A stretch of 64,000 bases of DNA, from the NCBI GenBank assembly GCA_004431415.1, contig QPMI01000649.1, positions 1 to 64,000 of the forward strand, given 5' to 3'. This DNA comes from Cyanophora paradoxa CCMP329 (lineage: Eukaryota > Plantae > Glaucophyta). Every line of letters starts with the position of its first letter. The stretch's first letter is position 1. Below are positions 1 through 47,433 of this stretch, one piece after another. Made by a program: the position numbers and the translations under genes. The notes under the pieces are model-generated. The model was given only the letters and a program-made list of their open reading frames with translations, did not search any database and was not told where the DNA came from.

Positions 1-192
1 GTAGCTTGAAGGAAATGCGATTTCCAACATTTATTCTCAAAAGTATTGCTGGGATTCACAACAACTAGAACTGGCTTAGACTTGGATTCGAGACCAAGCA
101 TAAGGGAGTTATCCAGGAAAAAGGCTTTCGCCTCCTCTGGGTTGTTAGGGCTTCTTCAGCGAAAGTCTTTGAAGAGTGGAAGTGATATCCAT
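1..192 (-). CDS. 5' fragment of a hypothetical viral gene running off the window (frameshifted)
   Basis: ATG at 192 after an A-rich leader. MDITSTLQRLSLKK continues as NNPEEAKAFFLDNSLMLGLESKSKPVLVVVNPS after a 1-nt shift. Confidence 0.3.
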
Positions 193-244
193 TATATTCT
201 CTTTTATTATACTGCAACATAAAAAATCTACCAATGATCCTTAA

Positions 245-1249
245 TTTATGCGAAGTTTGTAATAACTGGATAGGAAGGGTGAAGCTGTGACATTCGCATC
301 TTAAAGTATTCATAAACTGGGTCCCAGCTGGCTCATCACCATAGCGAATTTCAAAGGTAAGATGAACAGGTTGACCCTCAAAATCAATTGGTTCATTAAC
401 AGCATTACAATATCAACCGAGAAAGTGGATAATCCAACCTTTTTTTATAGTATTTGTAAAGTGGATGAGCCTCTGTTGAATTGTAAACAACATGCTCACC
501 ATAATCTTTGTCAGGACCACTATTTTATGAAGTAACCAGTCAGAAGACCATCCCCACATTGCACCAGATCACCCAGCTCCTTTACTCTCACAAACAAAAC
601 ACTGTCCCTGGTCTTCTCAGGCTCAAAAGAAGATATAATGCCATTCACTCGACATCAGTAAAGATTCCATCAGTGAGAGCATCATAAACTTGGGATTTGA
701 TTGGGAATTCCCATATCTTCCAGGATCAAGACCAAGCAGTCTAGCTGAACTCAATAGCTTTTGGATTGTTTGTTGGCTTGGGTTTACAGCAAGTGAGAAA
801 GCCAGGTAAAAAGGCACTGCCGAGTGGAATATAATTCGTTTCAGTGACTCATCCCATTTGCAGCGAATGGATGGTTGGGGAGTTCTGCCAATGAATTTTG
901 AGTTGATTACATTCACCAGCTGTTGGTGGCTTTGGATGGGGGTCTCGCGATTTACCATGAATTGTTTCCATTGTTCAAAATCAGCAGCTGGGCGAGTTGT
1001 TGGAATTCCTGAGCTTCCAGCTCCTGGAGTTTGTTCCGAATAATAAATACTAAATGTGTTATCAACTGTGACATCTCCTGCTTTGGTTTCACCACTCACC
1101 ATAGGGATGCTGTTATAAAATTCGGCTGAGACCAGTCTCACAGCCCTCACATTCTCATAACTACTGGGGAGTCTAGCCACAAAGCTTGATGTGGGACCAT
1201 CACCAGAGATTGTATTAAATGAGCTAACCTCGATGTAATCCACAGGCAT
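245..1249 (-). CDS. Minor capsid (penton-like) protein 1, frameshifted
   Basis: N-terminal SSFVARLPSSYENVRAVRLVSAEFYNSIP, then in shifted frames VLFVRVKELG and C-terminal NEPIDFEGQPVHLTFEIRY. These match motifs typical of PLV/NCLDV minor capsid proteins. The 3' end is approximate. Confidence 0.6.
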
Positions 1250-1277
1250 TCTTCTTTATCTATATTTATATATTAAA

Positions 1278-2204
1278 ATGAACCGGCTCGTTAATATTGA
1301 TAGCAGGGATAGAAGCCAAGGACAAAATGAAAACTCTTACAGGGTCACCCTCACAACTCCAGTAGAGAGACCAAGGAATGCAGGGTTCTATATGCAGAGA
1401 TTCCAAACAGCATCTATAACAGTGTGGGAACTGATCATCTAACAGTTCAGTTTAATTACCAAGATGGTTCATATAACCAAGTGATCACACAACAAGTGTA
1501 TCCCCTTCCCAGTGGCTACATCAATCAGGGTCATTTTGGGTAACACACCCTTATAATTATGGGCTGAACTATTCAAGCTTCCAAACCATTGCAGGCAAAA
1601 CAGTAGCTTTTGAGTTCAAGATATTCTATAACCCAACTACCTATAAAGTGGAGTTTTACAGCAACCATGAGTTTCGTTTTATTGCAAGCAACCAGAGAAT
1701 AGGAAGCTTTTGGGTGTGAGTTCTACTGAATACACCAATGGGTATTATAGCACTCCTCCTGTTGGTGGATCACCCTATCGACCTGAGAACCTGTTAAAGT
1801 ATGATGGCAAACCTATTACACCTGATCACCCAGCATGGGAACCACCTTTTCAGGACCCAGACTCTCATCTAAGCCCTTGCAATATTATTTGACAGCAGAA
1901 AGATGTCTGATATGAATGCTGAGCAGTATCTATACATGCACATTAAAGAGCTTGCCCCTTTTGCCAGCAGACACAATATAATTCCGAAATCGCAACCACA
2001 TAACCAGGGGCAATCCTTAGATTGCAATTGAGTAAGGATATAGGTGGCTATGTTTACCATAGTGGTGAACATGCAGAATTCATTCAGATAAATGACAGAA
2101 ACCTGGTGATAAGGGAACTCACAGTTGAGTTTAAAGATTACTTTGGTGAACTGATTGATATGAATGGAATCGATAATTCTTTTCAGTTGGAGTTTATCGA
2201 ATAA
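1278..2204 (+). CDS. Minor capsid (penton-like) protein 2, multiple frameshifts
   Basis: MNRLVNIDSRDRSQGQNENSYRVTL, then VLYAEIPNSIYN in a shifted frame, YLYMHIKEL, and C-terminal LTVEFKDYFGELIDMNGIDNSFQLEF. The IDSRDR, AEIPNS and IDxNGxxxSFxLE motifs are present. Confidence 0.65.
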
Positions 2205-3745
2205 AGGCACCTGTAAAGTCAACTCTCATTGTGGGAGCATTCACATACACAAGGGGATAAATGCGAATATATTTAATTCTGAGAGAAAAACCTATGTAAA
2301 AAGCATCCTTGATGCTGAGAGGAAATCCACTCAATAGAGCCACATCACCTGAGTTGTGAGCATTGTTAATGTTCTCACAGACATATATTTTGTTTTGCCA
2401 TCTGATCGAATAAAAGACCAGTTGATCCATCAGTGGATGTTGCCACATTGAAAGTCTTAATAAAAGCATTGGTGTCCCTGAACCATAGGCAATAACAGAG
2501 GAGAGTTCGAAAGTATATGGGAAAGCAACTTGAAGGTATTCAGTGGGGTTTCCCATATCTGCTCAGGAGCATAGGCTCCAGCTTCCCAGCCAAATGCTGA
2601 AGGTCTAGCCATGAAAGGCTCTTTACCTGTCACAGAGGATGAGGCAGTGAAGGCATCATCTGCAAGCTGATACAATTTGCATCCAAAGGAGGTGATGTAG
2701 TGAGAGTGGATGAGATGTAAGCCTTTGTAGGGTTCTTTAATTCATAGTTTGCTACTAGAATGCTGCAAAGCTTATTAATCATATCATTGTTTGCTGCTAT
2801 GTATGTTTCAGTGAATGCTAGCATATCTGGGATCTTAGAAGTGTCATCAAGGGAGCTTACTATGTGATTTGGAAGTGGGACTGATAGCCTATAGTATCTA
2901 CCATAATCTTGATCATAGTTGTAGGGTAACAACTCCTCCATCTTATCAAGGGCAGAAAGCTCACTTGCAGCCATGAGCATGTTAATCAATGGGCTTCCAT
3001 CTGTTGAGGCAATCCATGAGAGAATTCCCCAGCTGTTCACAGTCTCATAAGCATAACCCACATAATCAGACTCTAAATGTGGGTCCACCTCACCACAAGA
3101 GATACTTATTACTATTATATCATCATCATCACTGTAAATCTTCTTTGCATGGCTGTAACCACACACACTGGGATTATTGTTTCCCGAAATGGCACCATCA
3201 ATGAGACAGACAAATACTCCCCGATTGAAATCAACAATGCTTACAGGAGAGAAATATGTAGGAGCAGCAGAAGTAGCCCTAGCAGCAATCTTACAAGGCA
3301 TAAAGTTGTAGTTGTTGTCATTTGTGATAAATATTGGTTTCATATTCTGAGTATCAAAGGATGTAATCACAATGTCCTTTAGGGAATCCTGTATTAGTGA
3401 TTCACCAGTAACTGAATTAATTGCAGTCTCCAAGGGTCCCACATCATATTTTGTATTAAAAAGGGCATTTTCGATGATATTTCGAGGATTTGCGAAAATC
3501 AAGGGCAGTTGAGTTAGGTAAATATTGTGTAAATCGTTTGCTGTCAGTTTAGGTTCACCTGGTTTATCAGGATGCCTGATATTCAAACCTATTGCAATGA
3601 TCCCACCAGTGGAAGTTCCACTTACAAGATCCACAAGATCGATTACTCTTCTGCCAGTTCGATTTTCGATTTCTTTTAGCAGCCTGGTTATGATAATGCC
3701 CCTTGCACCCCCGCCAGAAAGACTTAAAACGACCTTGAGAGGCAT
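2194..3745 (-). CDS. Patatin-like phospholipase fused to a C-terminal discoidin (F5/8 type C) domain, frameshifted
   Basis: Patatin motifs LSLSGGGARG, GTSTG, ATSAAPTYF and IDGA. The 3' ORF pieces AFTASSS, EYLQVAF and KYIRIYPLVYVNAPTMRVDF follow the discoidin pattern. Confidence 0.8.
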
Positions 3746-3788
3746 CTTTTACTTATCAGGAATTTTATAAATCCATATAGTAAAAGCC

Positions 3789-6700
3789 ATGAGCTTCAAT
3801 TACCCACCAAATCTAGAAACCATTCAAGATGATAATGCAAGCAGCACCAAGCATGTGAACTTTGATAATATTAAAGTAAAGGGTTCAGTTTCAATTGACC
3901 ACAGCTCTGATAATTCATCAAAGACTCAATCAAGGGAGCATGCTTTATCTGTGAATCAAACCGATCCAGATAAGGAGGAAGTCAGTGTAGCTTTTAGCTT
4001 GGGTAATGTGAAAGCAAACCAAGTGGCAGAGATCAAAGCAACAAGAAGGAGACCTAGGAAACTAAAAACCAGTGGCACTCATCCAGATATACCTTCCAGG
4101 TTTGATAGTGGTCGTTTGGTTTTCAATGTTCAAGATGAGCAGGGCAAACAGAACACAGCTTTGCGAATTTACAATGAGGGCAGTACTGCAAAAGCTGAGG
4201 TCCCCCAAGTATTGCAAGTGGGTCCCATTGCCAACACAAATCAGGTCTCCTACACAAATGATGTATACCCCAAGGATATTACATATGACTTTGCGAGGAA
4301 TGAGCCTTTTGGGTTTTTTACTCCAAAAGATGTCCATCAAAAAAAGCCATCAATTACAATCAACAGTAGCCCCAGTCAACCAGTAGCAATCCATTTACAC
4401 CCTGATTTAGTCGAAATGGATAGGCACCTTTTGCCTTTGTATAGCAATGTGAAAGACCTTGGAATTCGAACCAGGCAATGGCGAAATATCCATGGCAGCA
4501 ATGTGTATGCAAATGGGAGAAACTTGTGAGTGAGAAAACTCTAAGGGAAATAATCGAGCATTATGGTCCCAATGGACCAACAGTCCCATTCCCTATTCCA
4601 TTTCCAAATGGACCTCCCGATTTAACACCAAAGAAACAGCCTGGAAGAGAATACACAGCAACTGAAGATGTAGCCTTTGGGCAGCATATTGTTAGTTGGG
4701 AGCAAGTTCGCAATAAACCTATAATTGAACCCAGAAAGCAAATAGATGAGCAGTATTTACCTCCTGAAGTCGATATATTAGAGCTTGATGAATATCAATT
4801 CGTTCCAGATGAGGAAGAATATTTACCAGATGGTTTTGACCCACAAGAATATGAATATGATCAGTTTGACCCCAATGAGGAGGAGATACTACCAGATGGC
4901 TTAGATCCTCAAGAGTTTGAGTATGAGCAGAACTATGAACCTGATGAGGAGTATTTACCAGATGGTCATGATCCACCAGCTGTTGACTATGAGCAACCTT
5001 ATGAACCCCATGAGGAATTATTACCAGATGGATTTCGACCTGAGATCTGGGAGTTCTTTCCTGATTATGAACAAATTAATAATAAACCTGCAAAGTATCC
5101 CCCAGAGGATCACAATCATGATTGGGATGAGATCTTAGGCAAACCTCAAAAGTATCCACCAGAGGATCACAGGCATGATTGGGGAGAAATTGATGGGATA
5201 CCTACTGAGTTCCCACCAAGCAAACATGAACATACTTGGGATGAGATCAATGACCAACCAGAATTCGCAAAGGTAGAGCCTCTTGATAACTTGGGGGTTT
5301 CTCTTTATCAGACTTGTAATGTCCCAGAAAGGATCTTTTTGAATGAACACTATGTTCATGTGAATGGGACACTTGCTAATTCAGCTATGAGAGGACCACT
5401 TCATATTAGGACATTACCAGGCTCTTATAATCCACCACCTGAACCAGGAGCAACCATACCAAATATCTTTGTGTCAAGCTACATGGAGGCTGACATTCCC
5501 ACAGATACATTCAGAGTCCCAACAGACCCAGCAACCTACCAAAATTACAACTCTGCTATACAGGTTCATGTAGCAGATGTAAGCAGTTTAGATGGCTCAA
5601 GACCAATGATAGTATTCAGCAGAGATAAATATTCCTACATTCCCATAGTGGGAACTGCAAATGATAATTATGGGAGAGCAGAGCTTGCATGGATTAAAAC
5701 CAACTATGGTGGGGTTCTGGAATCCAATCAGAGGATGGCTGCAAAAAACATACACAACGAAAATATTTCGAGAGTGGTCACAGAGGATTATTTAGAAGAT
5801 CAAGGATATATTGATGAAGGTGAACTCACAAATATTCTTTCTCTTTTTGTGATCAAAAATGACACAAACCTTACAGTCACAAGTAACATTTACACCAGTA
5901 ACCTTTATACAAGTAACATTTTCACAAGTAACCTGTGGGCAAGTAATATTTATGGAAGTAATCTAGAAGTCGACTATTTGACTGTGAATATTGAAGCGAA
6001 TCTACCAAATCATCCTACATCCAATGTAGTTTTAGGTTGGATCGATACCCACACCCACACAAAAGATGAAATAACAGATTTTGCACATGAGCATTTATGG
6101 GAGCATATAACAGATCCACCATTAACCTTCCCACCCAGTCCCCATGAGCATTTATGGGAACATATCACGAATCCACCATTAACCTTTCCACCTGATCCAC
6201 ACAGTCATGATTATTCCCAGATCACCAACTGCAATCACAGACACCCTTGGAGTGAAATCGATCAACAACCAGTGTTTGCACAGTTGAATGCAATCGGAAA
6301 TGTTTTTAATGGAGTCACACTTTACCAATCGAGTAATACACCTGAAAGATTGTATTTGAATAATCATTATGTTAGTCTCAATGGGACTTTTACAGGTCAA
6401 ACAGGCACTCCAATGGAGGGAACTCTTGCAGTAAGATTACCCAGGGATCCAATCGTAAATGGAGTGTATAGTGGCGATTTCAATGTAGGAGTAAACGATA
6501 CTTTCCCCAGTATCTATGTTACGAATTATCACCCAGGAGAAATAGGACAAGTAGCGGATTTTTCAGCAGCTATTCAAATTAACGTAACAGATCAAAGCGC
6601 ATATGATGGAGCAAGACCTAAAATAGTATTCACAAGGGAGAAAGTTGTAAACTACCTTCCTGTAGCAGGACAACCCACAGATGATCATGGGAAATGTGAG

Positions 6701-9349
6701 ATTGCATGGATAAAAACGACATCAGGTGGAGCCTTAGAAGTCAATCAGAGGATGGCAGCAAAAAACTTACACAATACAACCCTTTCAGGTGTGGTCACAG
6801 ATGATTACCTAACCAATAAAGGGTATCTTACAACAGCAGATTTAAGCAGCTATGTAACAGAAAGTGAATTGGGAACGACTCTAAATAATTATACAACAGA
6901 TGCAGAGTTAACAGCAGCTCTAGGAAATTATTTACCTCTTACAGGTGGGACAGTTAATGGAACTGTAAACGCTACTAGTCTACAAATTGGTGGAAACACA
7001 ATTCCAAAAGGATATGATTTCGATCAATTAGATGTAGTATCAACAGATAGAAGCGCAAATAATTGGAATTTGAATTGGTCACCAAGAACAGGACAAACAG
7101 GATGTTATACAACACCACAAAATGATGAAGATTGTAGCGGTTGTTTTATGAGGTGGACTGTCCCCACAGGTATGAAATCATTTTATATTCAGCATATGCC
7201 TTGGTATAATGGCAGATATTTTGATATCTATGGTCAGACTCTCAATAACAATCAGCATTTCTTAAAACGTGTAAACGATTATCAAGGAATACAGTCAGTA
7301 AATCATGATGGGACAAATAATACTATCTTGTTTGTATCAATTAATTGCGAGTTTTACAAGTATATTTATGTTCAAGGTCGAAAAGGTCGCATTCATCTCA
7401 CAGGAGTTTTTGGTTGGAGTAGGCAGAGGGCAACAGATAATGATGTTGGTATGATCTCTTGGGATAATGTATTTAGTAAACCTGATTTTGCAGGCACTTA
7501 TGCAACAAAGGCAGAAGTCCCTAACGTTTTAGGTGATCTATTGACAGTGAACTCTGTGGACTGGCACAAATCAACAGATAATATTCCAAGGTTTTGGTTT
7601 GGTAGTGGTAATACAACATATATTCGAGGGTATGGGAATGGTGAAGGTGTTTCGATTGAATTTAGAAATTCAGGAGATACAGCCATTTTGAAGTCTTATG
7701 ACAATGGTAACCTTTGGGTAAATAATACCATAACAGCATCTACAATAAATGCTACTACAAATCTCCAAATAAATGGGAATGCTGTTCCAAAGCTACACTC
7801 CAACGATGGATATGTTGCAGGGAGTTCTCCACACAATTATTCTGGAAGTTGGACATTTGGGTATGGCTCAGCTTGGGAACCCTATTTTAATTATGGTGGG
7901 CATGCATACAATAATGAAGTGGATGACCAAACCTCTTCCGCTTGGATTGAATACAATATACCCGATGGATTACACACAGGGTCAGCATTTCTGACTCATT
8001 TACCATGGGGCAACACACGAATTTTCGAGATTTGGGGAATTAATCGACAAGGCAATGCGATTTTCATAACAACTGTCAACAATTATCACCCTTATGCAGG
8101 GTCTGCAAATGATAACCATAGTGGTGTGAATAATGTCCCCATCTTCCTAGGAAACCGATTTGTAAGGATTCGAATTCAAGCAAGAATTGGAAGGGTTCAC
8201 ATTATGGGTATTAGTTTCATGAAAATATGGGTTGGGCATAGCTATGGTGGTCACACTGGTTATATTCATTGGAATAATGTGTACAGTAAGCCAAATATAC
8301 CTACATCCTATCTATCATTAACAGATGTCACCAATTCGATTGGAAACATTACAGGTTTTGATACTTGGAGTGGACATGGTAGTTACAGTCTTTATTATGT
8401 TGGATCTTGGACAGGAGGTTGGGTTCCTTCTAACAGTAATCCCATTGATGGATTTTATAGCAACAATGTAGATGATCAAACAAGTTCAGATTATGCACAA
8501 ATTGAAGTCCCAGCCAATATGAAAACATGTCATGTTCAGTATATGTGTTGGACGAATTGTAGATATTTCGATATTGGAGGTTATCGAAATGGGAGGTGGC
8601 ACCACATTATGCGAGTTAATACATATCAAGCAGTTTCAAATAATGGAGATTCAGATTGGCATGATGGGTTAACATGGACTTCTTTCTTTTGTGATACATT
8701 TTCACATATTAGATTTGTTGCAAGGAAAGGGAGATGTCACATTGGAATGATTGGATGGACAAAAGAAAAAGGAAGAACAGCCCCAGCAAATGGTTTTATA
8801 AGTTGGGATAATGTATATAGTAAAGATGCTCGCACAACTTGGGCAACCGGAACTTGGATAACATCAGATGAAGGTAATGGGAGAGTTTTTTTCGGTTCAT
8901 CATCAACTACATACATTAAAGGTTATGGTTACGAAATGATCCATTTTAGAGCAGGAAATGATATAACAATGCAAGCTTTTTATAATAATGGTGACGTTTA
9001 CTTTTGGGGATGGCTTACACAAGGAAGTGATAGAAGATACAAAACCGACATTAAAAATATAACCGGCGCCCTTTCAGCAATTGAGAAATTACAGGGTGTG
9101 AGTTACAAAAAGATTGGTGATGGAAAACAGAAAGTAAACTTAGGTTTGATTGCGCAAGATGTCGAAAAAGTCATACCAGAAGTAGTAGGTAAAAATCACG
9201 AAAATTATTTGACCCTTGCATACACAGGTTTAATTCCGGTTCTCATTGAAGCAGTGAAGGAGTTATCCCAAAAATGCAAAGATTTAACACAAACCTGTGA
9301 GAATCTCCAAAGTCAAATAGACCAAATTAAAAATATCACAGTATTATAA
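3789..9349 (+). CDS. Large virion fibre/spike protein with C-terminal peptidase S74 intramolecular chaperone; probably one gene split by a 1-nt shift near 4517
   Basis: C-terminal SDRRYKTDIKNI...GLIAQDVEKVIPEVV...YTGLIPVLIEAVKEL. HxH-W-xx-I tail-fibre repeats, acidic EEEYLPDGxDP repeats and duplicated internal domains. Adding one G in the GGG run joins ORF 3789-4529 to ORF 4478-9349 (NGEKLVSEK). Confidence 0.8.
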
Positions 9350-9655
9350 ATGGCGACCTATCCTCTTGGTGGAACCACCTATTCTACTGAGCCTGTTGCA
9401 CTTTCTTTTGATACAATCACCCTTGTAAACGCATTACAAACAGTTGAAAAAACGATTCAGCAAACTAACAAGCTCTCACCAGTTGTAAATGAGTATAAAA
9501 ACCTCTTGGTTAATGTCCTTGCTCAAGCTGCATATGGTGACCCTGTTGCTAAATACAATGAGTGTGATAACAACATTAAAGCAATGACGTCCAACCTGCA
9601 AGTTCTTTCAACTGTTTACCAATCCCTTGGATCGAATTTAATCACTTTGGCTTGA
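9350..9655 (+). CDS. Hypothetical viral protein (101 aa, probably helical)
   Basis: Intact ORF whose ATG immediately follows the fibre stop (TAAATG). Confidence 0.7.
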   Translation: MATYPLGGTTYSTEPVALSFDTITLVNALQTVEKTIQQTNKLSPVVNEYKNLLVNVLAQAAYGDPVAKYNECDNNIKAMTSNLQVLSTVYQSLGSNLITLA

Positions 9656-9694
9656 TGGTAGTTTATTTTTCTTTCCTTCTTAGTAAAAGAAGCA

Positions 9695-10540
9695 ATGGGT
9701 GAATATAATCGAGTTCAACTTCCAATATATTCCCTTGGATCCCCTGCAATGCATTTTCGCCAGCATGAAGTAAATGATGAGGTTCGTGGTTTAGAATCCA
9801 CAGAGAGACCCAATTCCAATGGTAACTCCTTTGATAAAAATTCGATTATTCGAGTAAAAGAGCTGAGAGCTGATAAGAATTCAGGTGTGGTTAAAACAAC
9901 TCGACTTCTTGTCACAAATGCTAACTTTTTCCAGCCTACAAATGGAGGTCCTGATGCTTACAGTGTTGATCTGAAAGCCCTAGATTTCGATAAGAATACT
10001 GCTGCTGTTACTGTGAGATCAGGAGGAGCATTTATTGGGGGTGGCTGCAGAGTTTCAGGTCAACTCTCATCCTCAATTTCGTATAATGATGTCCCAGATA
10101 CTCTAGAGCAAAATGTGGAAGACCCCCAACGAATTCGATTATATACTCCTGTCGCACAGCAGCCATTAATTCAATTTTACATTGGATATACTGTTACTCT
10201 TGAAAACTCGGAATTAATTGAAGGAACCAAAAGAGTACTGAGAGGTCTTGCGATTCCATCTGCAATGCTTTCCCTTTGTAGAGCCAACAACAATCAAGTA
10301 GGTCATAAATACTATTTCAATGTTCAGGGATATAATCATTTCGGTTATGGCTACTGTGTTTATAATAATAATTTCACCTTTGACTTGTTTGTTACAGATA
10401 TTGGGTTATATACTATAACTCTTATCGGTTTGAGAACAGATATAGCCGCTGTATCAGCTCTTAGAGGTGTAACTCCTGATACTCTTTCAGTTACAGGGTT
10501 TTACATGGAGCCAGATGTAATTGATGAGCCAACCCCATAA
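9695..10540 (+). CDS. Hypothetical viral protein, paralogue A (probably structural)
   Basis: Intact 281-aa ORF sharing GLxSTE...ELRxDKNxGxVKTTxLLVTNANF...SGGAxIGxGxRVxG with the next ORF. Confidence 0.75.
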   Translation: MGEYNRVQLPIYSLGSPAMHFRQHEVNDEVRGLESTERPNSNGNSFDKNSIIRVKELRADKNSGVVKTTRLLVTNANFFQPTNGGPDAYSVDLKALDFDKNTAAVTVRSGGAFIGGGCRVSGQLSSSISYNDVPDTLEQNVEDPQRIRLYTPVAQQPLIQFYIGYTVTLENSELIEGTKRVLRGLAIPSAMLSLCRANNNQVGHKYYFNVQGYNHFGYGYCVYNNNFTFDLFVTDIGLYTITLIGLRTDIAAVSALRGVTPDTLSVTGFYMEPDVIDEPTP

Positions 10541-10563
10541 AAGATATATCCCTTTAATGTAAA

Positions 10564-11397
10564 ATGGCTGAGCAACCCCCACTTGAACGAATTATTACAC
10601 CACAGCTATCATTAGCTGCCCCAGCAAACCATGTTTTACAGCATGCTACCTTTGATGATGTAGAGGGTCTCCAATCCACAGAGGTCCAACCTACAATGAA
10701 TACATTTGGTTCCACCCATAAACTGAGATTACAGGAACTCAGATGTGATAAAAATAATGGAATAGTTAAGACAACTAAGCTACTTGTCACAAATGCAAAC
10801 TTTTCTGCTCATTATGGAGACCCAGATAGCTATGGAGATCCTCTGTCTACTTATTCTTTTGAATCTAGGTCGGGAGCTATTAACTGCAAATCGGGGGGAG
10901 CTTATATTGGTGATGGTCTTAGGGTTGGTGGGGCTGTTGGAGCGCCTTTATTTGTGAATGATCAACCCAATCCCATTGATCCCAACACAAGAATTCGAAC
11001 CTATGTCCCCAGCATGAATGCCCCATACATTATAAAGATATTCCCCATTGTTGTAAATCAACAAACAGCAGTAGTTGACTCTCTTGTTGAGATTGGTGAT
11101 CACTACAAGGTGGTTGTTGATATCCCACCAGATGTTTATGCTGTATGCCAAGTTGAAGGTGGAACTCCCAACTTTGCAGTTGTGATCACCCCATATGATA
11201 ATTTCGGAATTGCTTATCATGGAGTCAATTTCGGTTTGGAAGACTATCAGTTTCTGGTGAGAGCCACCAAGTTTGGTATCTACAAGTGTGTGATGTTTGC
11301 AGAGAGAACCGATTTTATTGCAAAGCAGAATACCTATGCTGAGTACTATGGCACTAATCGATATTTCCCCATTTTTGGGCAGGATACTGCTCCATAA
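10564..11397 (+). CDS. Hypothetical viral protein, paralogue B
   Basis: Intact 277-aa ORF whose N-terminal half is clearly homologous to 9695-10540. Confidence 0.75.
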   Translation: MAEQPPLERIITPQLSLAAPANHVLQHATFDDVEGLQSTEVQPTMNTFGSTHKLRLQELRCDKNNGIVKTTKLLVTNANFSAHYGDPDSYGDPLSTYSFESRSGAINCKSGGAYIGDGLRVGGAVGAPLFVNDQPNPIDPNTRIRTYVPSMNAPYIIKIFPIVVNQQTAVVDSLVEIGDHYKVVVDIPPDVYAVCQVEGGTPNFAVVITPYDNFGIAYHGVNFGLEDYQFLVRATKFGIYKCVMFAERTDFIAKQNTYAEYYGTNRYFPIFGQDTAP

Positions 11398-11419
11398 GAA
11401 TATTGGTTATATATAGAGT

Positions 11420-11692
11420 ATGGATAGTAAAACAAAAAAGTTTATTGATGCTGCTATGACAGTTCATGGTAAAGATAAATTCGATTACAGTGAGACACAT
11501 TACATCAAAGCTCAAGAGAAAGTATCTGTTAGATGTTTGCAGTGTAATAAGGTGATCCTTACCTATCCCTTTAATCATGTGAAGGGATCAGGTTGCAGGG
11601 AATGCAACAAAAAGCATTCTCAGGCTTATAGGAAAAGGGCTTCTGCATCAATCACAGTAGAGTACAGGGATATTTGCATTAGGTTCGATTAG
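11420..11692 (+). CDS. DUF723-like zinc-ribbon protein (endonuclease-associated DNA-binding module)
   Basis: FIDAAMTVHGKDKFDYS...Y...KVSVRCxxC...PxNHVKGSGCxxC pattern, common in phage and giant-virus proteins. Confidence 0.7.
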   Translation: MDSKTKKFIDAAMTVHGKDKFDYSETHYIKAQEKVSVRCLQCNKVILTYPFNHVKGSGCRECNKKHSQAYRKRASASITVEYRDICIRFD

Positions 11693-11721
11693 GTTTAATT
11701 AATTTTTCTAAGGTATTCTTA

Positions 11722-12120
11722 ATGGAGACTAAATACAGAGGCTTTCATGTTATGCTTGATTACAAAGCTAAATCAGCTATTGCAACAGGACATGAGCATG
11801 TTAGCTTCCTAGGTAATTGGATTATGGGAACCCTTGAACAAGCTATATTGAGACAAGGTATTAGGATTGTTCATAAACACTGTGAAATATTTGATGGCAA
11901 AGTATCACCTCCTGGTTTTGCATTGGTTCTGCTATTAGATGAAAGCCATTGTACAGCTCATTGTTATTCCAATGAAGGCATGTTAGCAATTGATATATTC
12001 AGTTGTGGTAAAGAAGCTCAGCATAAAACACAAGCAGTTGCAGATGAGATCGATAAAACAATGAATTTCCTCACATTTGAGAAGACTGAGAGACATAAAC
12101 ATGATAGATTCCCGTTTTGA
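11722..12120 (+). CDS. speD: Pyruvoyl-dependent S-adenosylmethionine decarboxylase family proenzyme (bacterial short form)
   Basis: GxHxxxD N-terminus, PPGF...LLLDESHCTAHCY (ESH self-cleavage site) and AIDIFSCG in a 132-aa protein. Confidence 0.85.
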   Translation: METKYRGFHVMLDYKAKSAIATGHEHVSFLGNWIMGTLEQAILRQGIRIVHKHCEIFDGKVSPPGFALVLLLDESHCTAHCYSNEGMLAIDIFSCGKEAQHKTQAVADEIDKTMNFLTFEKTERHKHDRFPF

Positions 12121-12354
12121 TGGGTTTCTATAATGAATTTCTAAAGGATTCCTTTGTTTTCTAACAATAACATTGATAAGCTACTGTAACAAAAAGATAT
12201 AATATATCCTTTCACTACAGTAGATTTATACAATGATTATTTTCCGGATTCCGGACATTTTTTACGATAGAATTCTATTGTAAGTAATTGGAATAATGTT
12301 CGATTTCATTACAGTAAAACTCAACACTCCCCAAGATTCCCCCTATTACCCTAT

Positions 12355-12800
12355 TATTAAAGTGGACTCAAGGTTGACTCATATTAATCGTAAAAGTAGT
12401 AAAAGTATATGGATTTTGTTACGAATTCAATGCAAGGGTTGACTAAGTGGGTTGAGTTGACTCAAATTTCACAGGAAATATTTGGGACCAAAAGTTTTCT
12501 AAAAAGGATTTCAAAAAATGTGTCAACTCCCCCCACTTAGTCAACCCTGACCATAAACAGTAAGGATTTGAGCTAACATGTATCACAAAGTGAACATATT
12601 GAGTCCACTTAGAAGATCCACTTTTGAAATCCAAGTTGATTTTGCTTGAAATTTCAAAGTTGATCTAAAAGTGAGTCCACCCTGATTGATTATGGTAACA
12701 AAGTTGACTAAGTTGACTAAGTTGAGTCATATTAAGAAATTCAAGGAGACTAAGAGTTCAAAATGTTTATGAAAAGTGAGTCAACTTAGACCACTTATGA
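12355..12800. repeat. Array of GT(T/G)GACT(C/A)A motifs in both orientations
   Basis: About a dozen copies, e.g. agtggactcaaggttgactca, gttgactaagttgactaagttgagtca and gtgagtcaacttag. Confidence 0.75.
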
Positions 12801-12848
12801 TAACAAAGTTAAATATTTATTTGATTTAATCGGAAAAGAACATGATTT

Positions 12849-13072
12849 AATCGAATTTATTGATATAATTCCGATTAGATTCATTTAGGATTCAATTAAG
12901 ATCAATCGAAGTTATTGATATAATTCCGATTAACTACAATTAAGATACAATATCGATTAATCGAGTTTATCGAGATAACATCGATTAAATTAATTGAAAA
13001 TGCATGTAAAAATATGAAAATTCATGTGAAAATTCAAATAAATTAATCGATTTTATTGATATAACATCGAAT
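12849..13072. repeat. Four 28-bp dyad-symmetric subterminal repeats
   Basis: AATCGAnnTTA-TyGAkA-TAAnnnCGAwT starting at 12849, 12904, 12959 and 13045. Confidence 0.85.
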
Positions 13073-13147
13073 CACACATATGAATATTCATATTTTAATC
13101 CTGAGGCGGAACGCCGAGGGATTAAAATATGAATATTCATATGTGTG
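13073..13147. repeat. Terminal hairpin: perfect 29-bp inverted repeat around a 17-nt partly paired apex
   Basis: CACACATATGAATATTCATATTTTAATCC (13073-13101) and GGATTAAAATATGAATATTCATATGTGTG (13119-13147). Confidence 0.95.
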
Positions 13148-14552
13148 GCCGCGAGCTCAGCCTCGAGCGCCTCCTCTCCTCTGGCTCCGCCTCCTTCATC
13201 ATCGACAAGGTAAAATTCTAGAATATCTAATTAATATTCATCCAGAGACTCGAGATCGCGTCTCACGCCGCGAGTGCGCAGGTGTGGGATGCCACGCGGC
13301 GGCTGAGCCCGGTTGCTAGGCTGGCCGAGGACGGGCCCCACTCCCCCGAGCTGCGGGCGGCCTCGCCGCCGGCTGCGGCGCCGGCGCCGGCCAGGCTCTC
13401 GGCGTTCGCCTTCCTGCGCACCGTGGCGAGGGCGAAGCGGAGCGCCAGCCCCGGGCCGGCGCTCAACGCGGCGCCCAAGGCCGGCGAGGCGGCGGGCGAG
13501 GCCGAGGCGGCGGGCGCCTGGATCGACTTCCCCGCGTACGAGGCCTTCCACCACGCCCTCCACCGCTCCATCTCCAGCCCCGCCTTCCCCTGGAACCTCC
13601 AGGTAATTGCATAATTAACTAAAGAGCATGCCAAATTTATGCGACCCAGGCCTCGGCTTAATTTTGTGCCGGCAGGAGGCGGGGCGGCTGGCGCAGGCGA
13701 ACTGGGGCGTCGACTCGCGCGGCTCGGAGCGGATGTCGCGGCAGGCCTTCGACACCGCCATGCACAACATCGCCAAGGTGCCCCCGGCTTCTGTGCTATA
13801 AATAAACGTGGAGCGCGGCTAACGCGGCCCGGGTGCGGTGCGGCAGGCGTGGGCGGCGGACGTGGAGCGGCGGGACGTGGCAGTGGGGGTGCTCCTGCTG
13901 GCCGCCGACGCGGGGCTCCCCGCCTCCGCCCCCGCGCCCCTCGAGATCCTCTTCCTCGCCAGCTTCGCCGCGGTGCGACAGCGAGCGACCGGTTTTCATT
14001 TCATTTGGCGATGGACGCTCGATCGCTGACGCTGCGCCGACGCAGACGGTCGTGGCGGCGGGCGAGGCGGACTCGATCGCGATCGCTAAGCCGAAGGCGG
14101 GGCCCGAGCTGCAGCTCGGCCCGGCGCTCGCGCAGCTCAGCGGCCTGCGACGGCCCTCCGCATCCCCCTCCTCCTCCCCGTCCCCCTCGCCCCGCGGCCG
14201 GCCGGGGGCGCTGCTGCGGCCCTGGTTCGAGGTCGGGCTCGGGTGCTGCCAGCCGCGCGGCGTCATGAAGCTCCTCGAGGCGCACATCGCCAGCCGCCGC
14301 CCCCCCGGGGCCGCCGCCGGCCCCAAGGCGACCCGCCCCGCCCCCGTCCACTCGTGCCCGGAGCTTACCTCCGGCGCCCGCTCGGCCAGCGCGCCGGCCG
14401 GGGCCAGCTGCAGCCCGAAGGCGGAGGGCAGGGAGGCGGCGCTGGGGCTGTGCGGGACGGCGGCGCTGATGCGGCGCGCCCTCCACAACCGAATGGCCAC
14501 CCTCCTCGAGCAGCGCCGCTGCTCCTCCGGCTCCTCCCCGCTCGACTACTAG
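13147..14552 (+). pseudogene. Host gene of unknown function, 5'-truncated or interrupted by the viral element
   Basis: Near-identical exons to 16955-18320, but it starts mid-exon (GGCCGCGAGCTCAGCCTCGAG) directly after the hairpin. Confidence 0.85.
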
Positions 14553-16531
14553 TATTTCGACTAGTTCGAAGTTCGCACCCCAGCGAACTGTAATTGCTCA
14601 AGCTTGATTCAGTGTTCGCGCGCGCAGCAACAGTTACAGACACAGACCTAGAATTATCGTAGGTAGATTAATTATAAGAGCACGATGTTCAACAGTGCTA
14701 GCTAGTTTCAGGCATGTCCCATGCTGATACAGGACGCAGGGTCAGCCGGTTTCCAATTTGTTTCTCAGGACTGGATGTAGTCATGAGCAGTGCAATCGCT
14801 TTTTCCTCGTTTTCTCTCGACATGTCCATCGTACATAGGTTTCAGATCATTGTCACTGTAATATTGAACTTCGGAAAGCACCAATAAGGGGGAGCTCGAG
14901 TAAAATCGTAACTAGAAGGTAAGCCAAGCTAAAGCTTTGAGCTCGAGCTTATTTATATATAATCTTCTAAATTCGAACCGGCGTCGACGTCGGCGAACGC
15001 GAATGCGATATCGAAAACTTCCTCGGCCTCGAGATTCAATGATTCCAGCCGCGCCCCGCGGGCTGCAAGTGGCGCGGCGCCAGCGGAGTCCACTCACGCT
15101 CACGATCAGGTATATATATTTATACGTATACGTATATATCGATCGCGATCGGGTCGCTCGCATGCAGTGCATATGAGCCTCGCCGAGTCGAGCTCGCGTC
15201 GCAAGCTACTAGGCTACTAGTACCGTAGTACGCGATTGCAATATTTTAATTGCTGGTTGCAAAATTGAACACGGAGTTCGACGGTCACTGGCACTCGCCG
15301 AGTCGGCGCCGGCCGGCGCCGGCTAATTTTAAATGATCCTACTAGTACATATGACTCTGATATGAGCCTATTGCCGGCGCCATGGCCAATTGCAACTTGC
15401 CGCAGTGCGGCAAGTTCAACGGTTGAAGAGCTGTTAACTTAGTAATGTTATATATACGCAGCCTAACGTTAACGTATCATAGTACTAGTAGTATAACGTA
15501 GGTGCCGGCGTCGTGCCGCCGCTGCCGCGGTGCCACCGTTGCCACGGCGGCAAAGCTTCGAATTCAACCGTGCACCATGGCACGCGTACGTGCTTGCAAA
15601 TTGCAATTGTCGATAATGTCAACTTGGCCAAGTTGGCAACTTTAATTTGTCAAGTTATCAAGTTGGGTTGGCAATGTCAACTCATTGTCGATGGCCTTCG
15701 CGGTTCGTCACTGGTCAGCACAGGCCGAAAAACTTTGAAGCTTGCACCGGAGTGGTCGGCGCCTGTCACTGGGGGCGGCGGCCGCGGGGCCGCAACAGTC
15801 AACAAACTTACTCCGAACTCGGGAACTTGAACCGGTTTTTCGGCAATCAAATTTCAACTTGGCAAGTTATATAATTAACCGGCGAAACGTTTGTTCTGTT
15901 AGGCCGACTCTCGGCGAACGTTAACCGTTTTGAACGCTCAGCGGCCGGGCTTACGTACCGTATATAACGGTATATTATCGATACTATGATATCGTAGTCA
16001 GATTCGTAGAGCCTGCAGCCTGGAGATCGGGGTCTATGACCGTCTATCACCGTCTAGGCAGAGTCATTGCAGACTATGCCGCAGTGCGCTAGCGGCCGCC
16101 GGGCTAGCCTAGCCTAGTAGTACTACGGTATACGTAGCGCCTTGCAATTGTGCGGTGTTGTGCCTCCGTAGTAGAGTCCGTACGCGTGCGGTCTCTCGAG
16201 CCGGCGCCTCCATCTACTATAGTATAGCTGTAGCTCAGCGCTAGCTAGCAGGTCCGACGTCGACGGTCGGCGATCATCGGATCGCAATCCCGTCGACATC
16301 CGCCTCGATGGCCAGCACGGCGTCGAAGTCGACCAGCAGGCGCGTCGAGCTGCCCCGTATCGACACGGCCTTTGCGAGGGTCGCATCCACGTCGGCGTCG
16401 CCGTTCCCGGTGCGCTCGGCGCGGCGCCCGCGGCCGCTCACGTCGCACTGCCCGCCGCTCACAGCTCACCGGACCGCGCGTGCGCGTCTGTACATGTGCA
16501 GATGCCCCGCCCCCCGAGCTCGAGCGCGGCG

Positions 16532-18343
16532 ATGCAGATGAGCATAACGCGGCCGCCCTCTCCCCTCGAATCGGACGGCGCCGATGTCCTCTCCGGCGAC
16601 AGCGAGAGCGATGAGATGGATGACGCGTGCTCCGTCCTGAGCGACGACCGGACGGCCCCGCGCAGGCGGCGGTTGCGGACCCTGGCCCCCGACCGCGGGC
16701 CGCGCCTCAGCGCCCGCAGCGACCCGACCAGCTCCTCCCCCGCCTTCGCCTTCCCCCGGCGGCCGACGGCGACCGCCGACGAGCTCTCCTCCTGCAGGGG
16801 CGCCGAGGCCGCGCTGGCGCACTCCCTCTCCCGGCCCCGCTCCTGCCCCGACGTCAGCCTCGCCGGCCCCGAGGCCGCTCCCGCCCGCCCGCCAGTCGCG
16901 AGCTGCAGCGCCGACGTCGACTGTGCCCAGCCGCCCACCGCCGAGCCGGACGCCGGCCGCGAGCTCAGCCTCGAGCGCCTCCTCTCCTCTGGCTCCGCCT
17001 CCTTCATCATCGACAAGGTAAAATTATTCAATAAATTAAAAATCAATCCAAGCTTCACTCGAGATCGGCGTCTCACGCCGCGAGTGCGCAGGTGTGGGAT
17101 GCCACGCGGCGGCTGAGCTCGGGCGCCAGGCTGGCCGAGGACGGGCCCCACTTCCCCGAGCTGCGGGCGGCCTCGCCGCCGGCTGCGGCGCCGGCCAGGC
17201 TCTCGGCGTTCGCCTTCCTGCGCACCGTGGCGAGGGCGAAGCGGAGCGCCAGCCCCGGGCCGGCGCTCGACGCGGCGTCGAAGGCCGGCGAGGCGGCGGG
17301 CGAGGCCGAGGCGGCGGGCGCCTGGATCGACTTCCCCGCGTACGAGGCCTTCCACCACGCCCTCCACCGCTCCATCTCCAGCCCCGCCTTCCCCTGGAAC
17401 CTCCAGGTGATTAATATCACACAAATCACGGCCGATTTCCCCATCCAGAGCCCAGGCCTGACCTGTGCCGGCAGGAGGCGGGCCGGCTGGCGCAGGCGAA
17501 CTGGGGCATCGACTCGCGCGGCTCGGAGCGGATGTCGCGGCAGGCCTTCGACACCGCCATGCACAACATCGCCAAGGTGCCCCCGGCTTGTGTAGGAAAC
17601 GCTGCGCGTAGATAATTATATAACGTGGCCCGGGTGCGGTGCGGCAGGCGTGGGCGGCGGACGTGGAGCGGCGGGACGTGGCGGTGGGGATGCGCCTGCT
17701 GGCCGCCGACGCGGGGCTCCCCGCCTCCGCCCCCGCGCCCCTCGAGATCCTCTTCCTCGCCAGCTTCGCCGCGGTGCGACAGCGAGCGACCGGTTTTCAT
17801 TTCATTTGGCGATGGACGCTCGATCGCTGACGCTGCGCCGACGCAGACGGTCGTGGCGGCGGGCGAGGCGGACTCGATCGCGATCGCTAAGCCGAAGGCG
17901 GGGCCCGAGCTGCAGCTCGGCCCGGCGCTCGCGCAGCTCAGCGGCCTGCGACGGCCCTCCGCATCCCCCTCCTCCTCCCCGTCCCCCTCGCCCCGCGGCC
18001 GGCCGGGGGCGCTGCTGCGGCCCTGGTTCGAGGTCGGGCTCGGGTGCTGCCAGCCGCGCGGCGTCATGAAGCTCCTCGAGGCGCACATCGCCAGCCGCCG
18101 CCCCCCGGGGCCGCCGCCGGCCCCAAGGCGACCCGCCCCGCCCCCGTCCACTCGTGCCCGGAGCTTACCTCCGGCGCCCGCTCGGCCAGCGCGCCGGCCG
18201 GGGCCAGCTGCAGCCCGAAGGCGGAGGGCAGGGAGGCGGCGCTGGGGCTGTGCGGGACGGCGGCGCTGATGCGGCGCGCCCTCCACAACCGAATGGCCAC
18301 CCTCCTCGAGCAGCGCCGCTTCTCCTCCGCACTGGAGTACTAG
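16532..18343 (+). CDS. Host hypothetical protein, multi-exon, full-length paralogue of 13147-14552
   Basis: GT-AG introns join SFIIDK/VWDATR...FPWNLQ/EAGRLAQANWGIDSRG...NIAK/AWAAD. The start could be 16502. There is one probable C-run indel near 18105. Confidence 0.7.
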
Positions 18344-18879: not shown

Positions 18880-21800
18880 ATGCAGCGATCCACCAGCGGC
18901 AACGAGCCGCTGGCCCACACAGGAAGCCTCATGAAGGCGAGCTCGGGCCCGCACGCGTTTGGAGCCGCGGACGGCGGTCTCCCGATCGAGTTGTGGGAGA
19001 AGATTGTGTCCTATCTCGATTCCGCCGACGCCGTCGTTGTCTCCGCCGTCTGCACGTACTTCAGAGGCGTCGTCCTCCGCGACGCCCCTCCCTTCGTCGG
19101 CGGCGGCATGCTGGCCGCCGAGTTGGACGCATACGCCACGGATGCGTGCTCTAAGGTGCGCCCGAGCCGACCCGGGCTCATATGGAGCGCTGAGCATCCG
19201 GCACCTCGGTGTCTCCCAGATCCTGTGCGTCACGGGCGACTCGGGTTGCGGCAAGAGCTGTGCGCACTCGCCTTCGTGCGCCCCTAGGTATCCTGCCGCC
19301 GCCCGACGCCGCCCGCGCATGCGCAGCGCTGCTCGCGCACTGGGCGGGCCGCTGGCGCGCCCGCGGGCCGGCAGACGCCGTCGTCGTCCACCTGAGCGGG
19401 GGCGCCACAGAGACGGCGCAAGCCTCCAGCCTCGTCCGGTGCCGCGGACGCAGCACCGCTCGTCCCCTCTCTCCCGCGCTCATCGGCCCGCGTACCGGTA
19501 CCGCAGCCGGGCCTACGGAGCGCTGCGAACCGCCCTGCCGTGGTCCCCGGAGCTGGAGATCAAAGGGGGGGACCCCCGCGCGCACCTCTGCCAGTTCGCC
19601 GTGCGACCCGAGTACCCCCTCCACGCTTCTTCCCCTCTCCCGAATCCCGACCCGCATTCGGCGCAGGCGTGGCTTGGGCGGGTACGCTCGGGCCTGGACG
19701 AGAAGGGAGAGGGGGCGATGAAGGTTGTCCTGGTCCTCGATGCCCTCGACCAGGTACCACCAAAGCCCGTCACAGGTTCCCCGTACCCCATTGGCTACTA
19801 CCCGCCCGCAGCTCGCCCTGGAGACGTCGACGGGAGGGGCGGCCCCGCTGATGATCATACCCCCCGGGGGCGCCTCCGCCAAGCTCCGCATCATCATCTC
19901 GTCTGATAAGGGTGCGTACCCCGCCTGCTTTCCGCCCCAGACCGCCCCCCCCCCCCCCCCCCGCCCCCCACCCCTCCTATGGCCCTTCGCTCGCTCACAA
20001 TTACCTCCTATTCCCCCGTAACCCCCCCCCCCCCCCAACAGGCCCGACGTTGGACGCGGCCATGCAGCTCCAGAGCGGCGCTAGGCGAGCTTTACCCTCC
20101 TTCCCCTCTGCCCCCCCCCGGCCCGATCGTGTACCCACCTCAGGCTTCTGCCCGTCTTGGGCCTCTCCAAATCGGAGCGCCGCGCGATCGTCCGCCACCA
20201 ACTTCCGGTACTCCCCCCCCCCAACTCGCGAAACGTGTACCCCTGCCAGCCGCCTCCGACGGCACCCCGCCAGGAGGCGGGCGACGCCCTCGCGTCCGCG
20301 ATCGCCGGCCTCGAACAGGTGCTTTTGTACCCCCCCCTCCCCCTCCACCTGCCCCCCTGCCCAATGCAGCCGGTAACCCCCCCCAGAGCGGGAACGCGCT
20401 GTGGCTGAGCGTCCTACTCGCCTACCTCCGCTCGGGCCCCGGCGCCCCCGACGAGTCCACCGTACCCCCTCCCCTCCCCCCGGCCCCGCACCCCCCTCCG
20501 GCCCGCCCGCCCACGCCCGCCCCCGCAGCTGGCGGCCGCGGCGGGGCGCGGGAGCGCCGAGTCTCTGTACGGGCTCTTGATGGAGCGCTGGGGGGCGACT
20601 TTCGGGGCCGGTGCGCCCCTCCTCCTCCTCCTCCTCCTCCTCCTCCTCCTCCTCGTCCTCGCCTTGAAGCCTCGGGGTACTGTATTCGAGCGAGGCTCAC
20701 CCGGCGCCGGCGGGCAGGCGCCGTTCGGGCGGCCCTCTCGGCGCTCGTCCTGAGCCGGCAGGTCCGCCGCGCCGCGCCGCGCCTGCTGCTCTACCCGCCC
20801 CCCTCCCCCCCCTCCCCCCTCCGCCTCCACCTGTACCCCCCCAGGGCATGTCGGAGGAGGAGCTCGCGTCGTTCCTCTCCGGCGAGGCGCCCGCGCCGGC
20901 CCTCGCTTCGCTCCTCCGGTCCGCCCGGCCCCGCCGAGCCCACTGAACTCAGATGTCATATGAGCCCCCGGCTGGGCCGTGCCCCGCGGCAGCGCGGGGG
21001 TCGCGGCAGGGGCGCTGGCCGACCGCGGCGGACTCGTCGCCCTCCGCCACACCGCCGCGCGCCTCGTGCGGGCGCTTTGAATTCGATCCGCGGCCGCGCT
21101 TCGCTCTCTCTCTCTCTTCTTCTCGCCTCTCGGAGGGTACGTTTAATTTGGTTTTGCAGGCCGCGACGGCGCACTGCGGCCTGCGGAGCGAGGCGGCGCG
21201 CAGGGTGCGCGGCGAGGCCCCTGAGGCTCCCTCGAATCTGGCTTGGCCTTACAGAGCGCTCATCAGGCCCGGTGCGCCGCGCTGGGGCGGTGGTGGGCCG
21301 CCCAGCCGCCCTCCGAGCGCCGCGCCCGCGAGGGGCCCCACGCCTTCGAGCGGGTCGGCGTACCCCCCTCCCCCTCACCCCCCCGCCTCTTCGACTTCCG
21401 TAACACGTACCCCTGCCGCAGGCGGGCGACTACGACGGGCTGGTCACCCTCCTCTGTGCGCCCGGCCGGCTTGAAGCTTAGCTTGATCGAGCTCAAGCCG
21501 CCCGGGGCGCCCGCCCCGCCCCCCCCTGAGGCCGCGCCTCTCCGCAGGGGACCTCGACGTGCTGCTGCGGCTGCGCTCGCCGGAGACGAACGACGCCGAG
21601 CTCCTCCGCCTCTGGGTCGCCTCCGGCCGCCAGGCCCGCCCCGCCCACGAGACCGGCCTGACCTCTTCCCCCCCCTCTGAGCTCGAGAGCGCGGCGGCAG
21701 GCGTCGGCGGCGGAGGGGTACGCGCGCGCGGTGGAGCGCGAGGAGGCGGCGGGGCGCGGCGGGCCGGCGCGCGTCGCCCGCGCCCTCCGCGACGCTGGCG

Positions 21801-38692: not shown

Positions 38693-41864
<3,172 letters not shown>

Positions 41865-46770: not shown

Positions 46771-47433
46771 CGTCCGGCAGCCGTAAACGAAGCCCCGCGC
46801 GCGATATCGATCGATGCCGTGCGGTCCGTGATCATGATGCGATATACATCACGATGACTCAGTCCTTGAGGGCGTTGACGCCGATGGAACGCCGCTCGCG
46901 TAAGCATGCGCACGTGCGCGTGCGCGGCGCAGTCGACTTCGCAATTGGATCCGATGATCCGATGATCGCGATATCGATATCGACCGATATCGAGTCGGCG
47001 ATCTGATCATGCATATGAGAGGCGCCGGCTTAAGCTTTGAGAGCTCGAAAGAGTTCTAGTCGCCGAGTCGACGTCGAGGCGGGCCGGGCCGCGGCCGATT
47101 ATCGGAATTCGAAGATAATCGGCGACGTCGACGGCTGGCGTATGCCAGCTGCAGTATGTTACGGTATACGTATATATGTACAAGTACACGCGCGCGTACG
47201 CGTACGTGCGCGTTGTTGTTGCTGTGAAGCGCTTGAAGCCAGAACTTGAAGAGCCGGTGGCGGCCGCGGATTCAATCGCTGTGCCAATGGGGGGTACTGG
47301 AGAGCCGGGCGGAGGGGGGGGAGAAGGTCGGTGCCGACTCACGCCCTGAGCTGTCGCTTAGCTGCCTCTGCTCCAGTGCCGGGAGCGCGTGCTCCGGGAA
47401 TCCGGGATCCTCGCGGGCATAAAGCAGCAGCAC

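What the first reader, a model, noticed from the sequence alone, without database searches (positions are those of the whole stretch)
1..13146. Integrated dsDNA virus with an unusual gene set in a GC-rich algal-type genome
Seen: an AT-rich intronless block joined sharply to GC-rich intron-rich DNA. Known: penton-like genes, lipases and S74 fibres occur in Polinton-like viruses, virophages and NCLDVs. Inference: two pentons, a patatin-discoidin fusion, SpeD and a hairpin end together do not fit a standard Polinton or virophage, so this may be an undescribed lineage. The long intact ORFs in 4.5-12.1 kb suggest recent integration or retained activity.
Basis: partly seen in the sequence, partly recalled or inferred. 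Interest (0 to 1): 0.85.

Follow-up and report, generated by a model that had tools for sequence, protein, structure and literature searches.

The report
Hairpin-ended virus integrated in glaucophyte alga
This is the right-hand 13 kb of a small DNA virus inserted into a host gene of an alga that is very likely Cyanophora paradoxa; it is one of many copies of a virus family already listed in published tables, and its lopsided hairpin tip would allow a direct test of whether such viruses start copying themselves from folded-back ends.

Summary
Real, but largely catalogued. Bases 1-13146 (GC 0.39, host 0.68) are the right part of an integrated Polinton-like virus. Its 5' end (192 to 1, minus strand) matches by eye, at 46 of the first 52 residues, a Cyanophora paradoxa major capsid protein printed in Bellas 2023 Table S2. 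That study counts 366 such genes in this alga, in two unnamed 'new' clusters. Bulzu 2025 tallies the same cargo in 156 glaucophyte elements (SpeD 66, lipase 89, S74 37, rve integrase 85) and mentions the patatin-discoidin fusion.

Public contigs show many variant copies ending at base 13146 beside at least nine other flanks. This copy sits inside an exon of a tandemly duplicated host gene. The contig holding this exact junction has only 27 viral bases. The two penton labels could not be confirmed. The left-hand frameshifts look like assembly errors.

Palindromic ends are described in a 2026 Halocafeteria preprint, and this scan found them before in other genomes. Here the 73-base hairpin has an asymmetric tip, so flip/flop ends could be counted in raw reads.

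The parts
1..192 (-). 5' end of the major capsid protein gene (runs off the window; single-base indels at 30, 138, 154)
   Evidence: Frames, ATG at 192; by-eye match of 46 of first 52 residues to C. paradoxa MCP gene_64235 in PMC10120064 Table S2; indels
300..1249 (-). Possible minor capsid (penton-like) gene A, frameshifted; left boundary approximate
   Evidence: ORF 623-1249, frames; label rests on recalled motifs only, no database support
1278..2204 (+). Possible minor capsid (penton-like) gene B, divergent from A, frameshifted
   Evidence: Frames; recalled N- and C-terminal motifs; no database support
2194..3745 (-). Patatin phospholipase, likely fused to a C-terminal discoidin domain (broken near 2397, 2426, 2544, 2672)
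   Evidence: PF01734 E 1e-20; factor VIII E 1.6; indels; such fusions noted in glaucophyte PLVs
3789..9349 (+). Fibre gene with C-terminal S74 chaperone; ORFs 3789-4529 and 4478-9349 are likely one gene broken near 4516
   Evidence: PF13884 E 3e-16; phage tail fibre PHROGs; PDB 6f45 E 1e-4; loose ends at 4516 in three runs
9350..9655 (+). 101-aa ORF directly after the fibre gene, no reliable family
9695..10540 (+). 281-aa orphan, paralog of the next ORF
   Evidence: 34% identity over 253 aa, E 2e-40; no homologs
10564..11397 (+). 277-aa orphan, paralog of the previous ORF
   Evidence: fold unusable, pLDDT 32
11420..11692 (+). 90-aa zinc-finger-like piece resembling domains of HNH endonucleases
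   Evidence: PHROGs 681 and 559, E about 1e-9 to 1e-8
11722..12120 (+). SpeD-type (class 1b) pyruvoyl decarboxylase with the DESH self-cleavage motif
   Evidence: PF02675 E 4e-11; alignment
12121..13146 (.). Non-coding terminal 1.03 kb, likely the terminal inverted repeat, with 55-bp and short subterminal repeats
   Evidence: GC 0.30; repeats; the other end lies outside the window
13074..13146 (.). Terminal hairpin: 28-bp perfect arms and an asymmetric tip (9 positions differ between the two orientations); element ends ...CATATGTGT
   Evidence: same end point beside other flanks
13147..13152 (+). Candidate 6-bp target-site duplication (GGCCGC), inferred only
   Evidence: Contigs of runs X1 and X2 start 24 bases upstream in host sequence, which fits a branch 6 bases into the flank; not seen in X10
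13147..14551 (+). 3' part of the host gene copy interrupted inside an exon
   Evidence: 94% identical to 16955-18329; the paralog's frame runs through the site
16310..18340 (+). Intact tandem paralog of the interrupted gene; shows what the empty site looks like (start approximate)

Best explanation
The block is the right part of one copy of a multi-copy Polinton-like virus family integrated in the genome of an alga that is very likely Cyanophora paradoxa, likely inserted by an rve-type integrase and possibly copied from its hairpin tips. Shown: a capsid gene of the catalogued C. paradoxa type, a fixed end at 13146, many other insertion sites, and insertion into an exon of one of two tandem host genes, the other copy staying intact. 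Inferred from family tallies and known biology: the unseen left part likely holds an A32 packaging ATPase, an rve integrase and a replicase; integration would leave a 6-bp duplication; the S74 fibre would attach the particle, the patatin-discoidin protein would bind sugars and breach a membrane, and the SpeD-type enzyme would raise polyamine supply. The terminal fold-back would prime DNA synthesis of an excised linear genome (about 45% likely). A virophage-like dependence on a giant virus is plausible but untested.
For: Capsid match 46 of 52 residues by eye to a supplement-printed C. paradoxa MCP. All 20 runs holding the stretch are one organism. Single contigs in the element have about 40-95 times the depth of a flank contig, for example 3746 against 39.9 in X4, and the fibre middle about 5-7 times (rough, not a copy number). 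The same end meets at least 9 other flanks in 5 runs, three of them seen in two runs each. X4 holds a 485-base contig over 13120-13604; X10 has a contig break exactly at 13147. Cargo agrees with Bulzu Table S6: of 156 glaucophyte elements A32 139, mCP_bulzu 97, lipase 89, rve 85, AdoMet_dc 66, pPolB 49, HNH_3 40, S74 37, tyrosine recombinase 0, protease 0. CpG observed/expected is 0.31 in the coding part against 1.1 in host DNA, in line with CpG methylation of repeats reported for this alga.
Against: No integrase, ATPase or replicase lies in the window and no genome was held. The junction contig has 27 viral bases, under the tool's 31-base rule, and X4 may be the source of the assembly. In X1 and X2 the flank contig continues into host sequence instead of virus, which may be an empty site or a collapse of the two paralogs. 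The duplication is inferred from a contig start and X10 does not show that break. Host identity rests on the capsid match, not on a host gene. The penton labels are unsupported by tools.
Confidence: 0.85

Rival explanations
1. The family is real, but this particular join is a mis-assembly between a high-copy viral end and one of two near-identical host paralogs, or is present in only some cultures.
For: X1 and X2 contigs run from upstream host sequence straight into the interrupted copy's sequence; the element's left part carries many homopolymer indels, a sign of poor polishing.
Against: X4 holds the join with 0 differences over its first 301 bases, and X10 breaks exactly at 13147, which needs a second predecessor there; the end point equals that of other copies to the base.
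Confidence: 0.08
2. It is a small relative of giant viruses (mriyavirus-like or Zoravirus-like) rather than a typical PLV.
For: HHpred best hits of these MCPs in Table S2 are NCLDV capsids; only 2 of 156 glaucophyte elements hit Polinton MCP models and 15 hit an NCLDV minor-capsid model; a 2026 preprint describes a continuum from PLVs to Nucleocytoviricota.
Against: The family tally has rve integrase 85 and pPolB 49 of 156; no HUH nuclease or VLTF gene was recognised in the 13 kb seen.
Confidence: 0.15
3. The hairpin is only an integrase or protein-binding end structure, or a by-product, and replication is protein-primed.
For: pPolB occurs in 49 of 156 glaucophyte elements; the two ends whose orientation I could read (the window and contig 17 of X16) are in the same orientation; the preprint itself offers accidental annealing as an alternative.
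Against: Palindromic ends go preferentially with non-pPolB replicases in Halocafeteria, and D5-type (40) and PIF1 (34) helicases are common in the glaucophyte tally; the hairpin is nearly invariant at very high depth.
Confidence: 0.4

Closest known systems
Cyanophora paradoxa endogenous viruses in Bellas et al. 2023 (PMC10120064, Tables S2 and S4; seen: passages and supplement rows)
   Same: Capsid N-terminus 46 of 52 residues like gene_64235; 366 MCP hits in that genome, 272 and 94 in two clusters marked 'new' whose totals are 273 and 94
   Different: The main text never names Cyanophora or glaucophytes; ends and gene order were not in the parts I saw; I could not tell which of the two clusters this copy is in
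Glaucocystophyceae PLVs in Bulzu et al. 2025 (PMC12220804; seen: abstract, passages, sections 7, 10, 33, 34, Table S6)
   Same: SpeD, lipase, discoidin-patatin, S74 fibre, HNH, minor capsids
   Different: Only tallied; the word hairpin does not occur in the main text; their MCP models hit 2 of 156
Palindrome-ended virophages and PLV subtype 4 of Halocafeteria seosinensis (bioRxiv 10.64898/2026.07.28.741278; seen: passages, section 7)
   Same: Palindrome at the tip of the terminal repeat next to the target site; hairpin-priming model
   Different: Other host supergroup; 52-nt palindromes shown there, a 73-nt hairpin with mismatched tip here
IMG/VR contig L001, a PLV-like genome with SpeD
   Same: SpeD, fibre genes, AT-rich
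   Different: Tyrosine recombinase-like gene, D5 helicase, Tlr6F; SpeD only 33% identical

Membership tests
Polinton-like virus (broad sense) | Double jelly-roll major capsid protein | tested here: met
   First about 64 codons only; by-eye match to an MCP listed as confirmed in Table S2 (HHpred probability 94; sibling gene_47449 98.5)
Polinton-like virus (broad sense) | Minor capsid (penton) protein | tested here: inconclusive
   No hit; model pLDDT 40, no fold match at E 0.001; genes frameshifted
Polinton-like virus (broad sense) | A32 packaging ATPase | not testable with these tools
   Outside the window, no genome held; family tally 139 of 156
Polinton-like virus (broad sense) | Integrase (rve or tyrosine recombinase) | not testable with these tools
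   Outside the window; tally rve 85, tyrosine recombinase 0 of 156
Polinton-like virus (broad sense) | Terminal inverted repeats and target-site duplication | tested here: inconclusive
   One end only; 1.03-kb non-coding end; 6-bp duplication inferred from contig starts in 2 of 4 DNA runs laid
Polinton-like virus (broad sense) | Multi-copy integration with GC contrast to host | tested here: met
Maverick/Polinton (strict sense) | pPolB plus rve integrase plus cysteine protease | not testable with these tools
   Outside the window; tally shows protease 0 of 156, which argues against
Virophage (Virophaviricetes) | Virophage-type MCP and protease | tested here: not met
   C. paradoxa MCPs fall outside the virophage columns of Table S4; MCP-VIR 0 of 156
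Mriyavirus-like small Nucleocytoviricota | HUH endonuclease, VLTF2/VLTF3 | not testable with these tools
   None recognised in 13 kb; the rest of the element is unseen

The most novel reading that the evidence does not exclude
An unnamed, glaucophyte-restricted lineage of protease-less integrating viruses that still moves in the genome, replicates from poxvirus- or parvovirus-like mismatched hairpin ends giving flip and flop forms, and took its SpeD from a freshwater giant virus that it parasitises.
Probability: 0.25. Interest if true: 0.65.

Novelty: new member of a known kind. Interest (0 to 1): 0.36.

Why it matters
As a catalogue entry it adds little: the family and its cargo are already in supplementary tables. 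The useful new point is the end. A perfect palindrome cannot reveal its orientation, but this hairpin differs at 9 positions between its two orientations and is present at roughly a hundred ends in a cultured alga with public DNA data. Counting flip and flop ends would test the hairpin-priming model proposed, but not tested, for PLVs and virophages. The family also gives a capsid lineage almost confined to one glaucophyte, worth placing in the PLV tree.

Tried and rejected
No genome was held, so the element could not be extended leftwards.

Homolog searches found nothing for the 281-aa orphan or the MCP fragment. The penton-like A piece gave no locus and two spurious repeat proteins. The penton-like B piece gave one 16-residue match in a phage contig, rejected. 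The terminal 20-mer had 0 matches in viral contigs, and SpeD alone gave no viral locus. The Atlas gave no answer.

Both single-sequence folds were unusable (pLDDT 32 and 40).

Expression: no RNA holder listed. Runs X15 and X16 are guessed RNA but their contigs cover the non-coding end and flanks, so they were used only as junction evidence.

Flip/flop could not be read from contigs. X4 breaks at 13074 and 13101 fit two orientations but also fit variants or flanks beginning GA.

SpeD trees were unresolved: a 90/91 group with L004 and P0003-P0005, open (L001, P0012, L008, L009, L012, L013 left out there). A giant-virus donor is therefore only a lead.

Biological decay of the left part was considered less likely than assembly error but not excluded. 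Contamination was rejected because of the many host flanks. No tRNA was found. No earlier notes exist on this genome.
Full report
Observation. The first 13146 bases have GC 0.386 and the rest of the window 0.682. The block is packed with intronless ORFs. Pfam finds patatin at 2630-3745, an S74 chaperone at the end of a 1623-aa ORF and an AdoMet decarboxylase at 11722-12120; PHROGs adds tail-fibre and HNH-like matches. The last 1.03 kb is non-coding with 55-bp repeats. It ends in a hairpin, 13073-13147, at -33.3 kcal/mol with z -10.05. The arms are perfect for 28 bases within the element, and 9 central positions differ between the two orientations.

The junction. From 13147 the DNA is 94% identical to 16955-18329. 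That second copy is an intact host gene whose reading frame runs through the matching site. So the element sits inside an exon of one of two tandem paralogs. All 20 public runs holding part of 5000-14600 belong to one organism. Laid contigs show many variant copies: single contigs in conserved parts have about 40-95 times the depth of a flank contig and the fibre middle about 5-7 times (the tool warns that depth is no copy number). The end at 13146 continues into at least 9 other flanks in runs X1, X4, X10, X15 and X16, three of them seen in two runs each; 14 further loose ends were not shown.

For this exact site the evidence is mixed. X4 has a 485-base contig over 13120-13604, with 27 viral bases, short of the tool's 31-base rule, and X4 may be the assembly's source. 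X10 has a contig that starts exactly at 13147. X1 and X2 have contigs that begin 24 bases upstream in host sequence and run into the interrupted copy. That may be an empty allele or a collapse of the paralogs. Their start point fits a branch 6 bases into the flank, as a 6-bp duplication would give, but X10 does not show that break. rve integrases are reported to leave 6-bp duplications.

What it is. Read on the minus strand, 192 to 1 is the start of a protein spread over three frames. By eye it matches 46 of the first 52 residues of gene_64235, a Cyanophora paradoxa major capsid protein in Table S2 of Bellas et al. 2023. Table S4 gives 366 MCP hits in that genome, 272 and 94 in two clusters marked new, whose totals over all genomes are 273 and 94. 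Host identity rests on this match; I did not test it with a host gene. Table S6 of Bulzu et al. 2025 tallies 156 glaucophyte elements: A32 ATPase 139, mCP_bulzu 97, lipase 89, rve 85, AdoMet_dc 66, pPolB 49, D5_N 40, HNH_3 40, S74 37, PIF1 34, tyrosine recombinase 0, protease 0, Polinton-type MCP 2. Their text notes discoidin, sometimes fused to patatin, in glaucophyte PLVs. SpeD also occurs in cryptophyte PLVs and in an unrelated PLV-like contig.

State of the copy. The 12 best-supported indels all lie in 1-2.7 kb (54 more were not shown). All 11 insertions adjoin the same letter, and 9 of 11 adjoin runs of two or more, against 18% expected; the one deletion is in a T run. This looks like long-read consensus error more than decay, though slippage would look similar. 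ORFs 3789-4529 and 4478-9349 are likely one fibre gene broken near 4516. The discoidin label has weak support (E 1.6; a second piece gave nothing relevant). The penton labels rest on recalled motifs and position beside the MCP; no search or fold supported them. The coding part is CpG-poor (0.31 against 1.1), which fits long residence under the CpG methylation of repeats reported for this alga.

How it likely works. Shown: capsid gene, fibre, lipase, precise multi-site integration. Inferred: an rve integrase inserts the linear genome at varied sites; the fibre trimerises through its S74 chaperone and binds the cell; patatin-discoidin helps entry; the SpeD-type enzyme, with its DESH cleavage motif intact, supplies polyamines. 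Viral SpeD homologs can be AdoMet, arginine or ornithine decarboxylases, so the substrate is open. Among 9 loci compared, the three best SpeD matches (L002-L004, 49-51% identity) are giant-virus fragments: L002 carries an NCLDV capsid gene and L003 and L004 are syntenic with it. The trees are unresolved, so exchange with a helper giant virus is only a lead. For the hairpin, a 2026 preprint describes palindromes next to target-site duplications in Halocafeteria virophages and one PLV subtype and proposes hairpin priming, untested. I put that at about 45% here. The two ends I could orient are alike.

What is in print. Searches pairing Cyanophora or glaucophyte with Polinton, capsid or endogenous-virus terms returned 0 to 5 papers each. 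None listed describes this family's genome or ends. Cyanophora is absent from the main text of Bellas 2023 and of two 2026 PLV preprints, whose supplements I could not see and which may place these capsids. Starrett 2021 mentions adintovirus-like variants in C. paradoxa contigs in one passage. I saw passages only of PMC12344493, PMC8502044, PMC11296320 and PMC9992855. Earlier notes of this scan report palindromic virus ends in four other findings; they are unchecked and I did not test them.

Verdict. A real integrated Polinton-like virus of a family already catalogued in tables, not a new kind of element. What remains of interest is an unnamed, nearly species-restricted capsid lineage and an asymmetric hairpin end that makes a published replication model testable. 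Novelty: new member of a known kind. Interest 0.36.

Noticed in passing
window 42889-52957 and 53933-64000: An 11-kb tandem duplication at 99% identity holding a gene with cysteine-rich repeats; recent duplication or assembly artefact.
   Followed up: no
window 39300-41900: Host queuine tRNA-ribosyltransferase gene with about 330-bp internal tandem repeats at 40374-41181.
   Followed up: partly
window 12121-13146: The terminal region is not CpG-depleted (0.89) but is GpC-depleted (0.31), unlike the coding part.
   Followed up: no
L002 (also L003, L004): GC-rich giant-virus metagenome fragments carrying the SpeD closest to the element's among loci with context.
   Followed up: partly
L007 9932-11289; L011 139-2611: Related SpeD genes lie beside deoxyhypusine-synthase-like genes (and an arginase-family gene in L011), suggesting arginine decarboxylase activity in that branch.
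   Followed up: no
L001: A 16-kb IMG/VR contig that looks like a PLV with integrase-like gene, D5 helicase, SpeD, collagen fibre, deoxynucleoside kinase and Tlr6F.
   Followed up: partly
window 32000-35000: Lower-GC host stretch (0.51) with a weak TPR match; not CpG-depleted, so not like the virus.
   Followed up: partly
window 5281-9021: The middle of the fibre gene has much lower depth than the rest and joints skipping parts of it, so fibre variants likely differ among copies.
   Followed up: no
window 18880-19150 and 37240-37734: Host F-box and signal-peptide-peptidase gene pieces.
   Followed up: no
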